Positions 27,163-51,065 of a DNA stretch of 58,278 nt are shown here, one piece after another. Position 1 is the stretch's first letter, and every line of letters begins with the position of its first letter. A program made the position numbers and the translations under genes. The notes below the pieces were generated by a model. It was given only the letters and a program-made list of their open reading frames with translations, made no database searches and was not told the origin of the DNA. Origin of the DNA: an uncultured Gammaproteobacteria bacterium (GTDB lineage: Bacteria > Patescibacteriota > Microgenomatia > UBA10105 > UBA927). The DNA is taken from the NCBI GenBank assembly GCA_964449675.1, contig CAYVAR010000003.1:1-58278 (forward strand), written 5' to 3'.

Positions 27163-27236
27163 GTCAATTTTCTTGCGGCCGCAGAAAAATTGACTCCGAT
27201 TGACAACAATAAAGCGGCCGCTTTATTGTTGTCAAT
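27163..27236. repeat. two adjacent palindromes, each centred on GCGGCCGC, between htpX and murT
   Basis: GTCAATTTTCTTGCGGCCGCAGAAAAATTGAC (imperfect) is followed by ATTGACAACAATAAAGCGGCCGCTTTATTGTTGTCAAT, a perfect 38-nt palindrome at 27199-27236. Its last two nt are the A and T of the murT ATG. Confidence 0.85.
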
Positions 27237-28686
27237 GCATTTATTAAATCTTCTTATTGTTTGGGCAGGAAAGTCGGCATCGCGAATAAGTCGTATTTTC
27301 AGAATCGGCTCTGGGGCAACGTGGCCGGGGGAGATAGCGCTTCGACTTCGTCCCGATATCCTTTCTTTATTATTCTCTCAACTTCGCAAAGGCGTCATCA
27401 TAATCGCCGGAACCAATGGAAAAACGACGACGGCGCTTATGGTTAAAAAAATAGCAGAAGCGCAAGGAATGTCTGTCATTCACAACGATAGTGGAGCAAA
27501 TCTTGACAACGGTATCATTTCTGCATTTATTAAACATGCATCATGGGGTGGAACGATTCGAGCTGATTGGGGAGTTTTTGAAGTCGATGAAAATATATTG
27601 CCACAAATAGTAGCGCAGCTCAAAACTCAAAACTCGAGGCTCAAAACCACAACGAAAAACGTAAAACTTATTATCGTTTTACTTAATTTATTTCGTGATC
27701 AGTTGGATCGGTATGGGGAAGTGGATGTGATTGCGGAGAAGTGGGAGAAGGCGCTTCGGCTGCGCTCAGGGCAAGCGCTTGAGCATAAAAACACAACATT
27801 GATTCTCAATGCAGACGATCCGCTTGTGGCACATCTTGGAGTAGCCAGTAAGCTTCCAGTTACATATTTTGGAGTCAATGACAAAACGCAATATCTGTCA
27901 AAAATGGAGCATGCCACTGATTCTATCTTTTGTCTCAATTGTGGCGGACGACTTTCGTATGAAGGGATCTATTATTCTCATATAGGAATCTGGTACTGCA
28001 CCACATGTAAAGAAAAAAGACCCATCCCTGATGTTTCTGATTGGAAATCACCGCTACCTGGCTTGTATAACCAGTACAATACTCTTGCAGCAGTAATCGT
28101 GGCAAAGGCATTGCACATTAAAGATAAAGATATTGAAGCTTCACTTACGACGTTTCGACCGGCGTTTGGGAGGCAGGAAGAATTTACCGTGAATGGTAAA
28201 ACGATAAAGATTTTTCTTTCAAAAAATCCAGCAGGATTTAATCAATCTCTGAAAACCGTATTAGCATTAGGCGCGACACAACTACTGTTCGTACTCAATG
28301 ATCGTATACCCGATGGCCGTGACGTCTCATGGATTTGGGATGTGGATTTTGAGCTCCTTAAGGAGGATAAACGCGTGATTGAAGAACCTTTCGGCTACGC
28401 ACAGGGCAGGCATGATGAACACGTGAAGAAAAAATATAAAAAGGGGGAGAAGATCGGGCGTTATACGATGAGAATTTCTGTAAGCGGGGAGCGATGTTAT
28501 GATTTGGCTGTGAGGCTTAAATATGCTGATATACCACTGCAGGAATCACAAGTTTTTGAAAATCTTGAGAAAGCAGTGAGGCAAAGTCTCGAACAAGAGC
28601 ATACTGGCGAAACACTATATATTTTACCAACATACTCAGCTATGTTAGAAACAAGAAAGATATTAACCGGTAAGAAAATCTTGTAG
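27235..28686 (+). CDS. murT: lipid II isoglutaminyl synthase subunit MurT (Mur ligase family)
   Basis: LIVWAGK...IIIAGTNGKTTT (P-loop), NLFRDQLDRYGE, Cys4 ribbon CLNCGG...CTTC, and a C-terminal DUF1727-like region (SWIWDVDFE). Followed by gatD. The start at MHLLNL is preferred. Confidence 0.85.
   Translation: MHLLNLLIVWAGKSASRISRIFRIGSGATWPGEIALRLRPDILSLLFSQLRKGVIIIAGTNGKTTTALMVKKIAEAQGMSVIHNDSGANLDNGIISAFIKHASWGGTIRADWGVFEVDENILPQIVAQLKTQNSRLKTTTKNVKLIIVLLNLFRDQLDRYGEVDVIAEKWEKALRLRSGQALEHKNTTLILNADDPLVAHLGVASKLPVTYFGVNDKTQYLSKMEHATDSIFCLNCGGRLSYEGIYYSHIGIWYCTTCKEKRPIPDVSDWKSPLPGLYNQYNTLAAVIVAKALHIKDKDIEASLTTFRPAFGRQEEFTVNGKTIKIFLSKNPAGFNQSLKTVLALGATQLLFVLNDRIPDGRDVSWIWDVDFELLKEDKRVIEEPFGYAQGRHDEHVKKKYKKGEKIGRYTMRISVSGERCYDLAVRLKYADIPLQESQVFENLEKAVRQSLEQEHTGETLYILPTYSAMLETRKILTGKKIL
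27618..27669 (+). repeat. AT-rich periodic element in-frame inside murT (QLKTQNSRLKTTTKNVKL)
   Basis: GCTCAAAACTCAAAACTCGAGGCTCAAAACCACAACGAAAAACGTAAAACTT shares CTCAAAACTCAAA and AACGAAAAA with the spacer element at 26154. Confidence 0.55.
27751..27778 (+). repeat. GC-rich hairpin module in-frame in murT (ALRLRSGQALE)
   Basis: GCGCTT-cggctgcgctcagggc-AAGCGC. A second GC-rich patch at 28387-28415 encodes PFGYAQGRH. Confidence 0.5.
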
Positions 28687-28704: not shown

Positions 28705-28744
28705 AATCCTACAAAATCATGCTCGAGCATGATTTTGTAGGATT
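28705..28744. repeat. perfect 40-nt palindrome centred on CTCGAG between murT and gatD
   Basis: AATCCTACAAAATCATGCTC|GAGCATGATTTTGTAGGATT, ending 10 nt before the gatD ATG. Confidence 0.9.
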
Positions 28745-28754
28745 AATATAGCTT

Positions 28755-29582
28755 ATGAAATATTCGTTACAAATCGGTTGGATGTACCCAGACTTAATGT
28801 CCACATACGGAGATCGGGGGAATATCATCGTGTTGACCAAGCGTTGCCAGTGGCGTGATATAGAGGTAAACGTTGAGGAAATTACTCTCGAAACTCCAAC
28901 CTCGAAACTCGAAACTTGTGATCTTATCTTCATGGGTGGCGCGCAGGATCGGCAGCAGAAACTAGCGGGAGAAGATTTTCTCAAACGAAAAGGTCCGGTG
29001 GTGAAAGAGATGGTTGAAAAAGGCATTCCGGCGCTTTTTGTCTGCGCAGCCTATCAATTCGTCGGCCATTACTACAAACCATATCAAGGAGATCCGATTC
29101 CGGGCGCCGGGATTTTTGATCTCTATACGGAGCATCCTGGTGACCAAGCCAAGCGCTTGATCGGAAATGTAGTTGCGGAGCTCATCTCTCCGTTGTCATC
29201 GCGAGACCCCGCTAAGCGGGGCGACGCGATCCCACTTGGTGAGATTGCTTCGTCGTCCGCCAACAGGCGGATTCCTCGCAATGACAACACGATTGTTGGG
29301 TTTGAAAATCACGGAGGACGGACGTATTTGGGTCCAAAAATGAAGCCATTCGCCCGCGTCAAACGCGGTTATGGAAACAATGGAGAAGATGGCTATGAGG
29401 GAGCCGTCTATAAAAACGCAATCGGCAGCTATTTCCACGGCCCCCTCCTTCCAAAAAATCCTCACATCGCCGATTGGCTTATTAAAACAGCACTTAGGAA
29501 AAAATATCAGGAGAATTTTACACTTAAAAACTTGGATGATGAACTAGAAATCAATGCTCATGAATTTATACGGAAAAAATAA
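28755..29582 (+). CDS. gatD: lipid II isoglutaminyl synthase glutaminase subunit GatD (CobB/CobQ-type GATase)
   Basis: LMSTYGDRGNIIVL, the catalytic Cys context FVCAAYQ, and HGGRTYLG / YFHGPLLPKNP. Immediately downstream of murT. Confidence 0.85.
   Translation: MKYSLQIGWMYPDLMSTYGDRGNIIVLTKRCQWRDIEVNVEEITLETPTSKLETCDLIFMGGAQDRQQKLAGEDFLKRKGPVVKEMVEKGIPALFVCAAYQFVGHYYKPYQGDPIPGAGIFDLYTEHPGDQAKRLIGNVVAELISPLSSRDPAKRGDAIPLGEIASSSANRRIPRNDNTIVGFENHGGRTYLGPKMKPFARVKRGYGNNGEDGYEGAVYKNAIGSYFHGPLLPKNPHIADWLIKTALRKKYQENFTLKNLDDELEINAHEFIRKK
29195..29285 (+). repeat. ~90-nt GTCAT...ATGAC palindromic element in-frame inside gatD
   Basis: Terminal inverted repeat GTCATCGCGAG / CTCGCAATGAC. Inner hairpins are CCCCGC-taa-GCGGGG and CGCC-aaca-GGCG. 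It encodes SSRDPAKRGDAIPLGEIASSSANRRIPRND. Confidence 0.7.
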
Positions 29583-29593
29583 TTAAAAAGAAC

Positions 29594-29665
29594 AGGTGCG
29601 AACATATTTCACCCGGAGGGTGAAGAAAGGGTGAAGAACCGGAGAGTGAAGAAAGGGTGAAAAAC
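29594..29665 (+). repeat. REP-like element, copy C (plus), 24 nt upstream of the HAD gene
   Basis: AGGTGCGAACATATTTCACCCGGAGGGTGAAGAAAGGGTGAAGAACCGGAGAGTGAAGAAAGGGTGAAAAAC. The head is 29/31 identical to copy A. The tail has four GTGAAGAA-type repeats. Confidence 0.8.
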
Positions 29666-30297: not shown

Positions 30298-30361
30298 TAG
30301 TGAATGCATATATCTACCAAACACCCGATGTGTGAAGTCATTGAAGGTTAAGGGAAAGAAT

Positions 30362-30410
30362 AGGTGCGAAAGTAGAACACCCGGAGGGTGAGGTTTGATG
30401 AGGTTTGATT
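30362..30410 (+). repeat. REP-like element, copy D (plus), downstream of the HAD gene
   Basis: AGGTGCGAAAGTAGAACACCCGGAGGGTGAGGTTTGATGAGGTTTGATT. Tail TGAGGTTTGA is duplicated. A degenerate partial copy may lie at 30321-30360. Confidence 0.75.
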
Positions 30411-32634: not shown

Positions 32635-34116
32635 ATGAGAACTATGAGTTATGAACCAGTTATCGGCTTAGAAGTGCATGTAGAGCTTGCCACAAAGTCA
32701 AAGATGTTTTGCGGGTGTCAGGCGGATCATTTTGGCAGGGAGCCAAATACCATCACCTGTCCGGTATGCTTAGGACTTCCCGGCGCGCTTCCGGTACCAA
32801 ACAAAAAGGCAGTTGAGTGGACTATTCTTTTGGGACTGGCGTTGGGTTGCACGATCAACGACGAGAGTAAATTTGACCGCAAGCATTACTACTACCCGGA
32901 TTTACCCAAAGGGTATCAGATTAGTCAATACGATGAGCCCATCGCCATCAACGGGCAGCTTGTCATTCCGAGTGAACGCAGTGAATCGAGGAATCTCACG
33001 CGTATGCGAGACCTCAAACAAGTTGAGGGATCCCTCGACTTCGCTCGGGATGACAAAAGGATAGACGGAGATGATCAAAAGACCGTCCGCATTCGGCGAG
33101 TGCATTTGGAGGAGGATACGGGAAAACTTCAACATGCGGTGGTTGATGGCCGCGACGTCTCACTTGTAGATTTTAATAGAAGTGGTGTACCGCTTGTGGA
33201 GATAGTTACAGAACCGGATTTGCAATCAGTTGAAGAAGTTGATGCATTCGTGAGAAAGATTCAGCAAACCGTCCGATACTTGGAGATATCAGGAGCAGAT
33301 ATGGAAAAAGGGACGATGAGGATAGAGCCCAGCATATCAATACTACCAATGTCAAATACTACCAAAACTACCAATATCAAATATTCAAAGCGGGATAAGA
33401 AACTTCCGGGATATCGTGTGGAGATAAAGAACATTAATTCATTTAAGTTTGCGAGAAAGGCAATAGAATATGAGATTGAGAGGCAACGCGAGCAACTCGA
33501 GCAAGGCGAGCAACTCAGGCAAGAGACTCGCGGGTGGAGTGAGAACAAGGGAATTACGGTGGCGCATAGGGAAAAGGAGGAAGCACATGATTACCGCTAT
33601 TTTCCGGAGCCGGATATTCCACCGATGCGCTTCGCGCAAGCTCAAATTTCAAAGCTCAAATCTCAAATCGGAGAAATGCCGGATGCAAAGAAAGAACGGT
33701 TTATGAGAGATTATCAACTGAGTGAATATGATGCGACGATTCTCATTGAGACGAGGGAGAGGGCGGAGTACTATGAAAAAAGTACAAAGTACACAGTACA
33801 AAGTACACAGTACAAAGACTTAAAACCAAAAATAATTGCAAATTGGATTATTAATAAGAAAGTGGATGTGGAAAAAGTGACGCCCGCGCTACTGGTTGAT
33901 CAAATAGCCCAATCTATGCAAACATCGTCGATCACTGATGAAGAATTAAAAAAAATAGTGAAAGACGTTCTTGCCCAAAATCAAAAGGCAGTTGACGATT
34001 ACAAAAAAGGAAAAGAACAATCGCTTATGTTTTTGATTGGTCAGGTGATAAGAATGACAACGGGTCGTACAACTGCAGAAACTATTAAAAAATTATTAGT
34101 TGAATTATTACAATGA
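32635..34116 (+). CDS. gatB: Asp/Glu-tRNA(Asn/Gln) amidotransferase subunit B
   Basis: YEPVIGLEVHVEL, CPVCLGLPGALP, YYYPDLPKGYQISQ, HLEEDTGK, EIKNINSF, and the C-terminal GatB/YqeY domain. Carries several in-frame inserts. Confidence 0.95.
   Translation: MRTMSYEPVIGLEVHVELATKSKMFCGCQADHFGREPNTITCPVCLGLPGALPVPNKKAVEWTILLGLALGCTINDESKFDRKHYYYPDLPKGYQISQYDEPIAINGQLVIPSERSESRNLTRMRDLKQVEGSLDFARDDKRIDGDDQKTVRIRRVHLEEDTGKLQHAVVDGRDVSLVDFNRSGVPLVEIVTEPDLQSVEEVDAFVRKIQQTVRYLEISGADMEKGTMRIEPSISILPMSNTTKTTNIKYSKRDKKLPGYRVEIKNINSFKFARKAIEYEIERQREQLEQGEQLRQETRGWSENKGITVAHREKEEAHDYRYFPEPDIPPMRFAQAQISKLKSQIGEMPDAKKERFMRDYQLSEYDATILIETRERAEYYEKSTKYTVQSTQYKDLKPKIIANWIINKKVDVEKVTPALLVDQIAQSMQTSSITDEELKKIVKDVLAQNQKAVDDYKKGKEQSLMFLIGQVIRMTTGRTTAETIKKLLVELLQ
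32962..33054 (+). repeat. 93-nt GTCAT...ATGAC hairpin element in-frame inside gatB
   Basis: GTCATTCCGAGTGAA pairs with TTCGCTCGGGATGAC (15 bp including two G-U on the sense strand). Inner pairs are CGAGGAATC/GATCCCTCG and CCTCAA-acaag-TTGAGG. Exactly 31 codons (VIPSERSESRNLTRMRDLKQVEGSLDFARDD). Confidence 0.75.
33781..33818 (+). repeat. heptamer tandem repeat (AGTACAM)x5 in-frame in gatB (STKYTVQSTQYK)
   Basis: agtacaa agtacac agtacaa agtacac agtacaa ag. A second periodic patch at 33338-33390 encodes ILPMSNTTKTTNIKYSK. Confidence 0.7.
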
Positions 34117-50131: not shown

Positions 50132-51065
50132 TCCTTTTTATCTTCAAGACATTCTAAGCGCTGACCAGTTTATCAAAAGTGAGCTTCTTCTCGTTGTCAG
50201 AACCGCTGACCGGATGAAAAAGCTCGTAGAGACAAAAGGCGGAGAGGAAACCCTCAAAGGTAAGATCATGACGGCGCTTTTTTACGAGCCGTCAAGCCGA
50301 ACCTTCGGATCGTTTATCGCCGCGATGCAACGCTTGGGTGGTGGCGTCATACCCATCCAGGGAGTCCAATATTCTTCTGTTTCGAAAGGAGAAACGCTAG
50401 CCGATACCGTGCGCACGTTTGGCAGTTATTCTGACATTGTCGTTTTGCGTCACCCAGAGGTGGGGTCGGCGAAGATCGCTGCGGAATTTTGCGATAAACC
50501 CGTCATCAATGCCGGTGACGGCGTAGGAGAGCACCCTACCCAGGCGCTTCTGGATTTTTATACGATTACCCGTCATTTTCAAGATATTTCCGGCTTAACG
50601 GTTACTATGGTAGGGGACCTTCTCAACGGCCGCACGATTCACTCACTCTCTAAATTACTGTCTTTGTATCGACCGTTGACGTTAAACCTCGTATCGCCGG
50701 AAATCCTGCGTTTGCCACAAGAGCTTTTGCGTATACTAAAAGATCGTAAGATGCGTGTGCACGAAACGGAAAACCTTGGTGACGTGATCGGAGATTCGGA
50801 CGTACTGTATGTCACGCGTGTACAAAAAGAACGTTTTACGGACTTAACCTCATATGAACGGCTCAAGCACCAGTATATCGTAACGCCCACACTCCTCCGT
50901 AAAGCAAAAAAAACGGCAATCATCCTGCATCCCCTGCCGCGCGTCGGAGAAATCACTATGGACGTAGATTTAGATCCGCGCGCCCTCTACATACGCGAAC
51001 AGATGGTCAACGGTATGTATATCCGCATGGCGCTTCTGTCTCTCATATTAACTAAAAGAGCATAA
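50115..51065 (+). CDS. pyrB: aspartate carbamoyltransferase catalytic subunit
   Basis: [12 protein letters not shown] (STRT motif), HPTQALLD, and HPLPR. Confidence 0.95.

What the first reader, a model, noticed from the sequence alone, without database searches (positions are those of the whole stretch)
32962..33054. A 93-nt near-perfect hairpin element (exactly 31 codons) sits in-frame in gatB
Seen: GTCATTCCGAGTGAA pairs with TTCGCTCGGGATGAC over 15 bp, including two G-U pairs on the sense strand. There are two further nested stems. The element lies between the conserved YQISQYDEPI..NGQL and RVHLEEDTGK blocks of GatB. The antisense ORF 32902-33135 is also open across it. Inference: this is the same element family as in gatD. 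The sense-strand G-U compensation suggests the hairpin is maintained at the RNA level even within an essential coding region.
Basis: partly seen in the sequence, partly recalled or inferred. Interest (0 to 1): 0.65.

Follow-up and report, generated by a model that had tools for sequence, protein, structure and literature searches.

The report
Selfish hairpin repeat translated inside gatB
The 93-base hairpin in gatB is a real copy of a known kind of selfish DNA repeat: two inverted 'GTCAT' hairpins of the type that flank small Ssn nuclease genes. It sits in frame in a tolerant surface loop of an essential enzyme of a tiny groundwater bacterium and is read through as 31 extra amino acids, so it is not a purpose-built RNA structure.

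Summary
Window 32962-33054 is a 93-nt (31-codon) near-perfect palindrome inside gatB. It is present in contigs assembled from four groundwater runs.

The element is a dimer of two inverted (T)GTC-tagged hairpin units around a 33-nt structured spacer. The units are GTC-ATTCC...GGAAT-C and GTC-ATCCC...GGGAT-C. This is the architecture of CGTC-tagged REP dimers, also known as Ssn-related motifs (Neisseria dRS3/NTS, Rickettsia RPE-4/-6).

In this genome the same units flank a small GIY-YIG (Ssn-like) pseudogene, with GTCAT ends outward. In related genomes intact homologues are flanked the same way, some by canonical NTS.

Removing exactly 93 nt restores an orthologue-like beta-hairpin. AlphaFold2 models the insert as a low-confidence loop.

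Of 120 Microgenomates GatBs, 26 carry such inserts in this loop, and 20 of them start at the same codon. Insert types are scattered over the GatB tree. Element identity between lineages is 0.87-0.90, against 0.37-0.41 at third codon positions, so the site is reused.

The RNA-level reading is not supported. Sense and antisense fold equally well, the gatD copy folds better as antisense, and the position-6 wobble comes from the two ends being different unit subtypes.

Verdict: a new member of a known kind. The recurrent same-site insertion is the interesting residue.

The parts
32635..34116 (+). gatB ORF (493 aa), the host gene
   Evidence: PF02934 and PF02637 hits; PDB GatB chains down to E = 1.7e-114.
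32962..33054 (+). Whole 93-nt element: an inverted dimer of two GTC-tagged hairpin units plus a spacer. It encodes VIPSERSESRNLTRMRDLKQVEGSLDFARDD.
   Evidence: Removing it leaves NGQL|KRIDGDDQKTVRIRR, which is collinear with T. maritima GFLEIDGDEGRKKVRIRR.
32962..32995 (+). Left unit, read on the + strand: GTC-ATTCC-GAGTGAACGCAGTGAATCGA-GGAAT-C (TCC subtype, long loop)
   Evidence: census. The same unit type is found in gatB of L199 and L200 and in the tgt copy.
32996..33028 (+). 33-nt spacer with two small hairpins, including CTCAA-ACAAG-TTGAG at 33013-33027
   Evidence: The spacer is conserved in C2:31683-31764 and in L198 and L199. L198 has the compensated form CTCAG...CTGAG.
33029..33054 (-). 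Right unit, read on the - strand: GTC-ATCCC-GAGCGAAGTCGA-GGGAT-C (CCC subtype)
   Evidence: The same 26-nt unit occurs in 18 of 41 related genomes. It is the right end of Ssn-like gene cassettes in G026 and G030. Contig depth over it reaches 668.
32961..32961 (+). Flanking T. With A at 33055 it gives the conserved YT|GTCAT...ATGAC|AR junction, which is either a target preference or part of the tag.
   Evidence: -1 is T in 102 of 134 copies and +1 is A in 105 of 134. No target-site duplication.
32902..33135 (-). Antisense ORF of 77 aa. It is a by-product of a stop-poor palindrome, not a gene.
   Evidence: 4 of 6 frames are open across the element. Solo units are open in 5-6 of 6 frames.
29195..29285 (+). 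Sibling element in gatD (GATase_3). Same superfamily, CGC/TGC subtype, 91 nt.

Best explanation
The element is a gene-less miniature of an 'SRM-ssn-SRM' cassette. It consists of two inverted copies of a (T/C)GTC-tagged hairpin repeat with their GTCAT heads outward, around a short structured spacer. This repeat class is the CGTC-tagged REP / Ssn-related motif superfamily, which includes Neisseria dRS3/NTS and Rickettsia RPE-4/-6.

The element entered gatB at a T^A step (CTT^AAA). It lies in the first strand of a surface beta-hairpin, just upstream of the RVHLEEDTGK active-site strand. Because the net length is a multiple of three and the frame has no stop, the gene survived. The element is transcribed and translated as a 31-residue floppy loop.

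The palindromy is a property of the DNA element. Each unit is the kind of hairpin that small GIY-YIG Ssn nucleases bind as single-stranded DNA. It is not an adaptation of the gatB mRNA.

Shown here:
- family architecture;
- association with Ssn-like genes in this genome and in related genomes;
- precise insertion relative to orthologues;
- presence in contigs assembled independently from public runs;
- recurrent use of the same site.

Inferred:
- translation (from frame and stop constraints only);
- that an Ssn-type nuclease mobilises or maintains the units;
- the insertion mechanism.
For: 1. Unit anatomy. GTC lies immediately 5' of a palindrome that starts with AT, and C lies immediately 3' of it, in both units. 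In PMC11893778 these are the positions critical for SsnA cutting and binding.

2. Association with Ssn-like genes. In the same genome, units of this subfamily flank a 98-aa GIY-YIG pseudogene, GTCAT-out (C1:50512-50537, gene 50562-50780 with one TAG, C1:50851-50876). Intact homologues (63% identity) in G026 and G030 are flanked by GTCATCCCGACC... and ...CTCGGGATGAC. Homologues in G007 and G022 are flanked by canonical NTS-like GTCATTCCCGCGAAGGCGGGAATCCAG.

3. Spread. Dimers with identical termini occur in at least 120 loci across Acidobacteriota, Gemmatimonadota, Verrucomicrobiota, Burkholderiales, Rickettsiales and CPR. Their inner arms CGAGGAATC and GATCCCTCG are conserved.

4. It is an insertion.
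- About 15 of 30 relatives, and most of the 120 homologues, lack it.
- T. maritima GatB aligns across the gap.
- The near-sister pair L196 (filled) and L197 (empty) differs by exactly the GTCAT..ATGAC length of 87 nt.

5. Translation is tolerated. All 26 inserts in this loop keep the frame open. In the AF2 model (pTM 0.82) the insert has pLDDT 45-65 and lies between strands 101-109 and 145-157.

6. Other hosts in this genome. Seven of 11 dimers lie inside Pfam-confirmed genes: gatB, gatD, tgt, a radA-like gene, an M16 peptidase and two FemAB genes. Solo units lie in ychF and an AspRS-like ORF.

7. Precedent. Intragenic CGTC-REP dimers encoding 20-30 aa, and the RPEs, are already described (PMC3733652, PMC10969869).
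Against: - The gatB units do not match the published degenerate SRM search sequence.
- They have 5-bp Watson-Crick stems with 12-20-nt loops, not the 8-9-bp stems and 4-5-nt loops of the described CGTC families.
- As isolated ssDNA hairpins they are weak by nearest-neighbour energies: -1.2 and -2.4 kcal/mol, no better than shuffles.
- The only Ssn-like gene in this genome flanked by this subfamily is a pseudogene.
- No transposition activity of any Ssn has been shown (PMC11893778 only raises the idea).
- No RNA or protein data exist for this organism, so translation is inferred.
- All five copies of this subfamily in genes have the same orientation relative to the host gene. The simple selfish-insertion model does not predict that.
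Confidence: 0.85

Rival explanations
1. The hairpin is kept by selection at the RNA level within gatB mRNA, for example to pause ribosomes, set GatA:GatB stoichiometry or stabilise the message. On this reading the G-U pairs are sense-strand compensation.
For: The sense RNA folds strongly (z = -4.85). All wobble positions in the four gatB copies of this subfamily are G.U on the sense strand, and all five in-gene copies of the subfamily share one orientation. A spacer hairpin shows one compensated change (CTCAA/TTGAG to CTCAG/CTGAG).
Against: - Antisense RNA folds equally well (-40.3 against -41.3). The gatD copy is better as antisense.
- Family-wide, the sense strand has 9 G.U against 4 A.C, and these are not independent.
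- The same elements are mostly intergenic in other phyla (118 of 134) and flank nuclease genes.
- Many GatB orthologues have no insert at all, so gatB expression does not need it.
- The position-6 wobble comes from the two ends being different unit subtypes.
Confidence: 0.06
2. The insert has been exapted: the 31-residue loop now contributes to GatB function in these bacteria, for example contacts with tRNA, GatA or a partner. That would explain why the loop is so often extended in Microgenomates.
For: 26 of 120 GatBs carry hairpin-repeat inserts in this loop and many others carry tandem-repeat expansions there. Copies with the same spacer peptide (SRNL.RMR.LKQVE.SLDFARDD) recur in four lineages.
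Against: - The encoded peptides differ completely between subfamilies at the same site (VIPSERSES... against VIARSESSS...).
- Presence and absence are scattered on the tree.
- AF2 confidence over the insert is low.
- Conservation is at the nucleotide level, including palindromic symmetry, not at the protein level.
Confidence: 0.06
3. The element is an intervening sequence that is removed, either by RNA processing plus ligation or by protein splicing, so the mature GatB lacks it.
For: A strong terminal helix brings the two junctions together. CPR genomes are known for unusual insertions in rRNA genes (my own knowledge, not checked here).
Against: - Every insert seen at this loop is in frame and free of stops. 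Removal before translation would not require that.
- There is no intron or ribozyme family match.
- There are no intein motifs.
- 93 nt is far too small for group I or group II introns.
Confidence: 0.02
4. Assembly artefact: a repeat was wrongly threaded into gatB.
For: Logan contigs break inside the 26-nt right unit, which is a high-depth repeat shared by many organisms in the sample.
Against: Both gatB halves are contiguous with element sequence in four runs, with zero mismatches, and no empty-site joint is seen. Homologous inserts occur at the same site in independently assembled genomes from other studies.
Confidence: 0.01

Closest known systems
Ssn-related motifs (SRM), including the Neisseria NTS/dRS3, with Ssn GIY-YIG ssDNA nucleases (Chenal et al. 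2025, Nat Commun 16:2388, PMC11893778)
   Same: A GTC tag 5' of a hairpin whose stem starts with AT, and a C right after the stem. The units are oriented and flank about 95-aa single-domain GIY-YIG genes on both sides, heads outward. They are spread widely across phyla. Related CPR genomes carry canonical NTS-like flanks around homologues of this genome's nuclease pseudogene.
   Different: - The gatB units fail the published degenerate SRM pattern because of a short Watson-Crick stem and a long GAGCGAAG-type loop.
[quoted passage not shown]
- The role shown for NTS (modulating transformation) is untested here.
- Membership of the local nucleases in cd10448 could not be tested.
CGTC-tagged REPs and their HH dimers (Di Nocera, De Gregorio and Rocco 2013, BMC Genomics 14:522, PMC3733652), which include R. 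conorii RPE-4 and RPE-6
   Same: The tag is CGTC or TGTC. Stems begin with AT. Units are mostly in inverted dimers with 20-100-bp, often structured, spacers, and heterodimers are common. Intragenic dimers encode 20-30 aa inside housekeeping genes. Different repeats are reported at about the same site of one gene (recB in Xanthomonas).
   Different: The described families have 8-9-bp stems and 4-5-nt loops and come mainly from Proteobacteria. They were reported as lacking a dedicated enzyme. CPR hosts, this GAGCGAAG-core subfamily and gatB as a target are not in that paper.
Rickettsia palindromic elements (RPE; Ogata et al. 2000, as summarised in PMC10969869)
   Same: Palindromic selfish repeats inserted in frame in many unrelated essential genes of a reduced genome. 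They are translated and predicted to be compatible with the host protein fold.
   Different: RPE-1-type elements are about 150 bp and each family encodes a conserved peptide. Sequence homology of this element to any RPE was not tested here. Here the same site is hit repeatedly in different lineages.
REPIN/RAYT and IS200/IS605 single-strand transposition
   Same: Hairpin doublets associated with a small ssDNA-acting enzyme gene that is flanked by the same hairpins. There is no target-site duplication.
   Different: The tag is GTC, not GTAG, and the enzyme is GIY-YIG, not HUH/Y1.

Membership tests
SRM / NTS (Ssn-related motif) | GTC trinucleotide immediately upstream of the palindrome (needed for cutting) | tested here: met
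   Both units have it: GTC-ATTCC... on the + strand at 32962 and GTC-ATCCC... on the - strand at 33054. The requirement comes from PMC11893778.
SRM / NTS (Ssn-related motif) | Cytosine immediately after the palindrome (needed for binding) | tested here: met
   ...GGAAT-C and ...GGGAT-C.
SRM / NTS (Ssn-related motif) | Match to the published degenerate search sequence HGTCWYN(0-2)YYVSBRHN(0-5)WNVSBRGN(0-2)RNCYNB | tested here: not met
   neither gatB unit matches, while the NTS control does. The whole genome has 4 hits against 3.9 in shuffles. Only C20:20129 is a true unit.
SRM / NTS (Ssn-related motif) | Units flank a small single-domain GIY-YIG (ssn) gene on both sides | tested here: met
   C1:50512-50876 in this genome, where the gene has one TAG. 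Intact cassettes occur in G026 (L204) and G030 (L059, L203). Canonical NTS flanks occur in G007 and G022.
SRM / NTS (Ssn-related motif) | The nuclease belongs to CDD family cd10448, and the unit is bound and cut as ssDNA but not as RNA or dsDNA | not testable with these tools
   Pfam gives only PF01541. NCBIfam has no specific model. The PDB gives only weak UPF0213 hits.
CGTC-tagged REP dimers (Di Nocera 2013) | Terminal CGTC/TGTC tag, stem starting with AT, short unpaired tail | tested here: met
   TGTC at both ends (T at 32961; A at 33055 gives T on the - strand). The stems are ATTCC and ATCCC.
CGTC-tagged REP dimers (Di Nocera 2013) | Stem of 8-9 bp and loop of 4-5 nt | tested here: not met
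   The Watson-Crick stem is 5 bp and the loops are 20 and 12 nt. Other dimers in this genome, such as C14:6114 and C20:20130, do have 8-9-bp stems with 5-6-nt loops.
CGTC-tagged REP dimers (Di Nocera 2013) | Inverted dimer with a 20-100-bp spacer, often structured; intragenic dimers encode 20-30 aa | tested here: met
   The spacer is 33 nt with two small hairpins, and the insert encodes 31 aa. I did not check the paper's definition of 'HH' against the heads-outward layout seen here.
Classical MITE | Terminal inverted repeats plus a target-site duplication | tested here: not met
   TIRs are present. No duplication of 1-4 nt is seen (10, 1, 1 and 0 of 134). The L196/L197 filled/empty pair differs by exactly the element length.
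Rickettsia palindromic elements | In-frame insertion in functional genes of a reduced genome; sequence relatedness to an RPE family | tested here: inconclusive
   The in-frame behaviour is met. Sequence relatedness to RPEs was not tested. PMC3733652 equates RPE-4 and RPE-6 with CGTC families.
Known structured RNAs, introns or ribozymes (Rfam) | A match at the gathering score | tested here: not met
   only four tRNAs are found in the window.

The most novel reading that the evidence does not exclude
Insertion is targeted rather than random. The same miniature subfamily sits at the same nucleotide of gatB (CTT^AAA), in the same orientation, in at least four lineages whose gatB third positions are saturated. 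A different subfamily occupies that very site in the closest relative.

This would mean that Ssn-type GIY-YIG nucleases drive a still undescribed single-strand 'cut at T^GTCAT and paste at YT^AR' transposition, or a cassette-exchange reaction at resident units. It would make them the missing mobilisation machinery for CGTC-REPs and RPE-like coding palindromes, and a main source of lineage-specific loops in CPR proteins.
Probability: 0.25. Interest if true: 0.7.

Novelty: new member of a known kind. Interest (0 to 1): 0.35.

Why it matters
This copy is one more example of Rickettsia-style 'coding palindromes', here in Patescibacteria. It explains an odd low-complexity loop in an essential enzyme without invoking RNA regulation.

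Three wider points follow:
- It warns annotators that such peptide inserts in CPR proteins (...VIPSERSE..., ...SLDFARDD, ...LGMT) are repeat-derived.
- It ties the in-gene copies to Ssn-type nuclease cassettes in the same lineage.
- It gives a clean natural data set for asking whether Ssn-associated hairpin dimers are mobile and site-selective. That data set is one loop of one universal gene, hit again and again, with filled and empty alleles. The published work leaves this question open.

Tried and rejected
- Rfam at gathering score over the whole window found only tRNAs.
- The published SRM regex does not match the gatB units.
- NCBIfam and PDB searches of the local GIY-YIG proteins gave no Ssn-specific model or structure, only weak UPF0213 and SLX1 hits.
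- No target-site duplication of 1-4 nt was found.
- Length mod 3 across 134 cross-phylum dimers is 56/40/38, so there is no real bias. In-gene copies in this genome are not all multiples of three between GTCAT and ATGAC. 'Multiple of three' is therefore a survivor filter, not a design feature.
- The sense-strand wobble bias is 9 against 4 and the cases are not independent, so it is not significant.
- No empty allele was found in the source samples, and there is no close relative: the best GatB hit is 73% identical.
- No RNA runs are available, so transcription and translation are untested.
- A single ancient insertion followed by vertical descent is rejected as the sole explanation. Insert types are scattered on the GatB tree (TCC needs 9 changes against a shuffled mean of 8.6, and at least 4 are forced by well-supported branches). 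The elements are also far more alike than silent sites.
- Transfer of larger gatB segments by recombination is unlikely, because the high identity stops at the element ends.
- I considered the RAYT at window 1704-2553 as a possible mobiliser. It is flanked by a different repeat, TCACCCGGAGGGTGA.
Full report
**1. Observation**

Window 32962-33054 reads GTCATTCCGAGTGAACGCAGTGAATCGAGGAATCTCACGCGTATGCGAGACCTCAAACAAGTTGAGGGATCCCTCGACTTCGCTCGGGATGAC. The first and last 15 nt pair, with two T.G wobbles at positions 6 and 12. As RNA the stretch folds at -41.3 kcal/mol, against -25.5 +/- 3.3 for shuffles (z = -4.85), with two inner stems.

It is 93 nt, exactly 31 codons, in the frame of the 493-aa gatB ORF 32635..34116. 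It encodes VIPSERSESRNLTRMRDLKQVEGSLDFARDD. The antisense ORF 32902..33135 is open across it.

Contigs assembled independently (Logan) from four groundwater runs hold 32700-33054 and 33025/33029-33400 without a single difference. They break only inside the 26-nt right unit, which is a high-depth repeat in those samples. No contig joins 32961 to 33055. One caveat applies: the four runs are from one study and may include the sample the genome came from.

**2. Anatomy**

The element is not one long designed hairpin. It is a dimer.
- Positions 1-34 are GTC-ATTCC-(20-nt loop)-GGAAT-C.
- Positions 68-93, read on the other strand, are GTC-ATCCC-(12-nt loop)-GGGAT-C.
- Between them lies a 33-nt spacer with small hairpins of its own, such as CTCAA-ACAAG-TTGAG.

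A census of the 1.24-Mb genome (G000, 41 contigs) for GTC + AT-palindrome + C gives 49 hits, some of them chance matches. The real ones fall into stem subtypes TCC, CCC, TGC, CGC and TTC with matching 3' arms. Eleven inverted dimers of 65-93 nt are present.

The stem triplet covaries within each unit, not between the two ends. The TCC/CCC heterodimer seen in gatB recurs in the tgt copy and around a nuclease gene. The position-6 wobble of the long outer stem follows from this heterodimer layout.

**3. What it belongs to**

That paper defines the Neisseria NTS as CGTCATTCCCGCGMAVGCGGGAATCYRG. It shows that:
- SsnA, a 94-aa GIY-YIG protein, binds the NTS only as ssDNA;
- the C after the palindrome is critical for binding;
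- the three bases before the palindrome are critical for cutting;
- ssn genes are typically flanked by such motifs on both sides.

Di Nocera et al. 2013 (PMC3733652) had already classed these as CGTC- or TGTC-tagged REPs. Their stems start with AT and they are mostly arranged as dimers with 20-100-bp spacers. That paper equates them with Neisseria dRS3 and with R. conorii RPE-4 and RPE-6. It documents intragenic dimers encoding 20-30 aa in housekeeping genes.

I tested the link to Ssn directly.
- The genome has eight small GIY-YIG ORFs plus UvrC.
- One of them, C1:50562-50780 (one in-frame TAG), is bracketed by GTCATCCCGACCGAAGCGGAGGGATC on the left and GAGATTCCTCGACTTCGCTCGGAATGAC on the right. 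This is the gatB element's architecture with a gene in place of the spacer.
- Its homologues in 37 of 41 relatives include intact 97-100-aa genes in G026 and G030 flanked by the same CCC-type units.
- Homologues in G007 and G022 are flanked by canonical NTS-like GTCATTCCCGCGAAGGCGGGAATCCAG and GTCATCCCCGCG...GGGGATCC.

Dimers with the gatB termini (GTCATTCCGAG...CTCGGGATGAC) occur in at least 120 loci from many phyla. Their inner arms CGAGGAATC and GATCCCTCG are conserved and their flanks read YT|...|AR. They show no target-site duplication.

Two membership tests failed.
- The gatB units do not fit the published degenerate SRM pattern.
- Their Watson-Crick stems are shorter and their loops longer than in the described CGTC families. 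Taken alone they are weak ssDNA hairpins by nearest-neighbour rules. The loop core GCGAAGC resembles the known stable d(GCGAAGC) mini-hairpin. That comparison rests on my own knowledge and was not tested.

I therefore file the element as a variant member of the superfamily.

**4. It is an insertion, and the protein tolerates it**

- T. maritima GatB (3AL0) aligns up to GFLEI and resumes at IDGDEGRKKVRIRR. Our sequence minus exactly 93 nt reads GQLKRIDGDDQKTVRIRR.
- About half of 30 related genomes have no insert here.
- L196 (filled) and L197 (empty) have gatB genes 85-91% identical at the nucleotide level. They differ by exactly the 87-nt GTCAT..ATGAC element.
- An AlphaFold2 model built on 105 homologues has pTM 0.82. 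The insert has pLDDT 45-65 and emerges between strands 101-109 and 145-157.
- In this genome 7 of 11 dimers lie inside Pfam-confirmed genes: gatB, gatD/GATase_3, TGT, a RadA-like gene, an M16 peptidase and two FemAB genes. Solo units lie in YchF and an AspRS-like ORF. All are in open frames.
- In other phyla 118 of 134 dimers are not inside long open frames.

**5. The site is reused**

- Among the 120 best GatB homologues, 26 carry hairpin-repeat inserts in this loop, and 20 begin at the same codon (VI...). Eleven are of the VIP/VIL type and nine of the VIAR type. Six others sit at nearby positions or in other frames.
- On a GatB tree built without the loop, the types are scattered. TCC needs 9 changes against a shuffled mean of 8.6, and well-supported branches force at least 4.
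- The closest relative (73% identity) has a TGC-type dimer exactly where ours has the TCC/CCC type.
- Four lineages (this window, L198, L199, L200) carry the same subfamily, spacer hairpins included, at the same nucleotide and in the same orientation. Element identity is 0.87-0.90 for pairs that include this window or L198, and 0.80 for L199 against L200. The coding sequences are 0.60-0.65 identical, and third positions 0.37-0.41, for those same pairs.
- The similarity ends at the element borders.
- The two TGC-type copies (L196, L201) are 0.96 identical.

Two explanations remain open. Either these are young, independent insertions into CTT^AAA, or resident copies are homogenised or exchanged from other genomic copies. 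Selection for a tolerant loop and an open frame surely contributes. Flank complementarity at positions -2/+2 (41 of 84 against 27 expected) hints at a YT^AR target.

**6. The RNA-level idea**

- Sense and antisense RNAs of the gatB element fold at -41.3 and -40.3 kcal/mol. For the gatD element the values are -49.2 (sense) and -52.8 (antisense).
- As ssDNA the two strands fold at -22.9 and -21.7 kcal/mol.
- Across 16 in-gene copies the sense strand has 9 G.U and 4 A.C in the first 11 stem positions. Most of the G.U are the shared position 6.
- The shared orientation of the five in-gene copies of this subfamily is unexplained. It could reflect the replication strand, which would fit an ssDNA-acting enzyme, as easily as RNA folding.

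I see no need for, and no real evidence of, RNA-level maintenance.

**7. Verdict**

This is a confirmed, real element of a known kind, RPE-like in behaviour, in a Gottesmanbacteria (CPR) genome. I found no paper in the searchable library that describes such in-gene repeats in CPR. Earlier notes of this scan report the same phenomenon in at least 29 genomes. Those notes are leads, not evidence.

The part worth following is the recurrent, orientation-constant reuse of one gatB codon. It also offers a way to test whether Ssn cassettes are mobile.

Noticed in passing
window 29195-29285: The sibling dimer in gatD (GATase_3) is 91 nt between GTCAT and ATGAC, which is not a multiple of three. It is of the CGC/TGC subtype. 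Its antisense RNA folds better than its sense RNA (-52.8 against -49.2 kcal/mol).
   Followed up: partly
window 1738-1773, 2495-2538, 29587-29630, 30355-30398: A different repeat family with a TCACCCGGAGGGTGA hairpin head. The family is unrelated to the GTCAT elements.
   Followed up: no
window 28705-28744: A perfect 20+20-nt palindrome (AATCCTACAAAATCATGCTC/GAGCATGATTTTGTAGGATT) lies between the ORFs 27190..28686 and 28755..29582 (murT/gatD).
   Followed up: no
GatB loop in relatives (L012, L019, L020, L026; P0003, P0009, P0043 and others): The same GatB loop is also expanded in many relatives by a second, unrelated kind of sequence: short A-rich tandem repeats such as CTCAAAACTCAAAAC, giving LELKTQNSKLK or NNPIIQSSNNPI. 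This genome's M16 peptidase has QLKTQNSKLKSTSQNSKVK just upstream of its hairpin insert.
   Followed up: no
L015 (G026 gatB): A third unit (CGTCATCCTGAACTTGTTTCAGGATCT) is nested inside the spacer of a TGC-type dimer at the gatB site. This suggests that units insert into, or next to, resident units.
   Followed up: no
G000 C13:137-358, C13:34004-34201, C12:4329-4544, C21:10420-10623, C21:7066-7272, C24:18100-18309, C10:11659-11823: Seven further small GIY-YIG ORFs, two of them with internal stops. They are flanked by other repeat types that are not GTCAT-tagged, for example GTGGTGAGCTTGTCGAACCAC repeated upstream of C13:137. Each nuclease may have its own cognate repeat.
   Followed up: partly
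flanks of 134 cross-phylum dimers (L076-L195): The junctions read YT|GTCAT...ATGAC|AR with no duplication. Positions -2 and +2 are complementary more often than independence predicts (41 of 84 against 27). This looks like insertion into the centre of a short palindromic YTAR target.
   Followed up: partly
window 33012-33059 in runs X1-X4: Summed contig depth over the 26-nt right unit reaches 668, against about 35 for the flanking gatB. The same unit must therefore be carried by many other organisms in that groundwater community.
   Followed up: no
window 5055-5069 (inside ORF 2632..5538): GTCTTTCCGAGGGAA on the - strand, coding ...HSLGKTQDRRDSS..., may be a decayed remnant of a unit inside another large housekeeping gene.
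   Followed up: no
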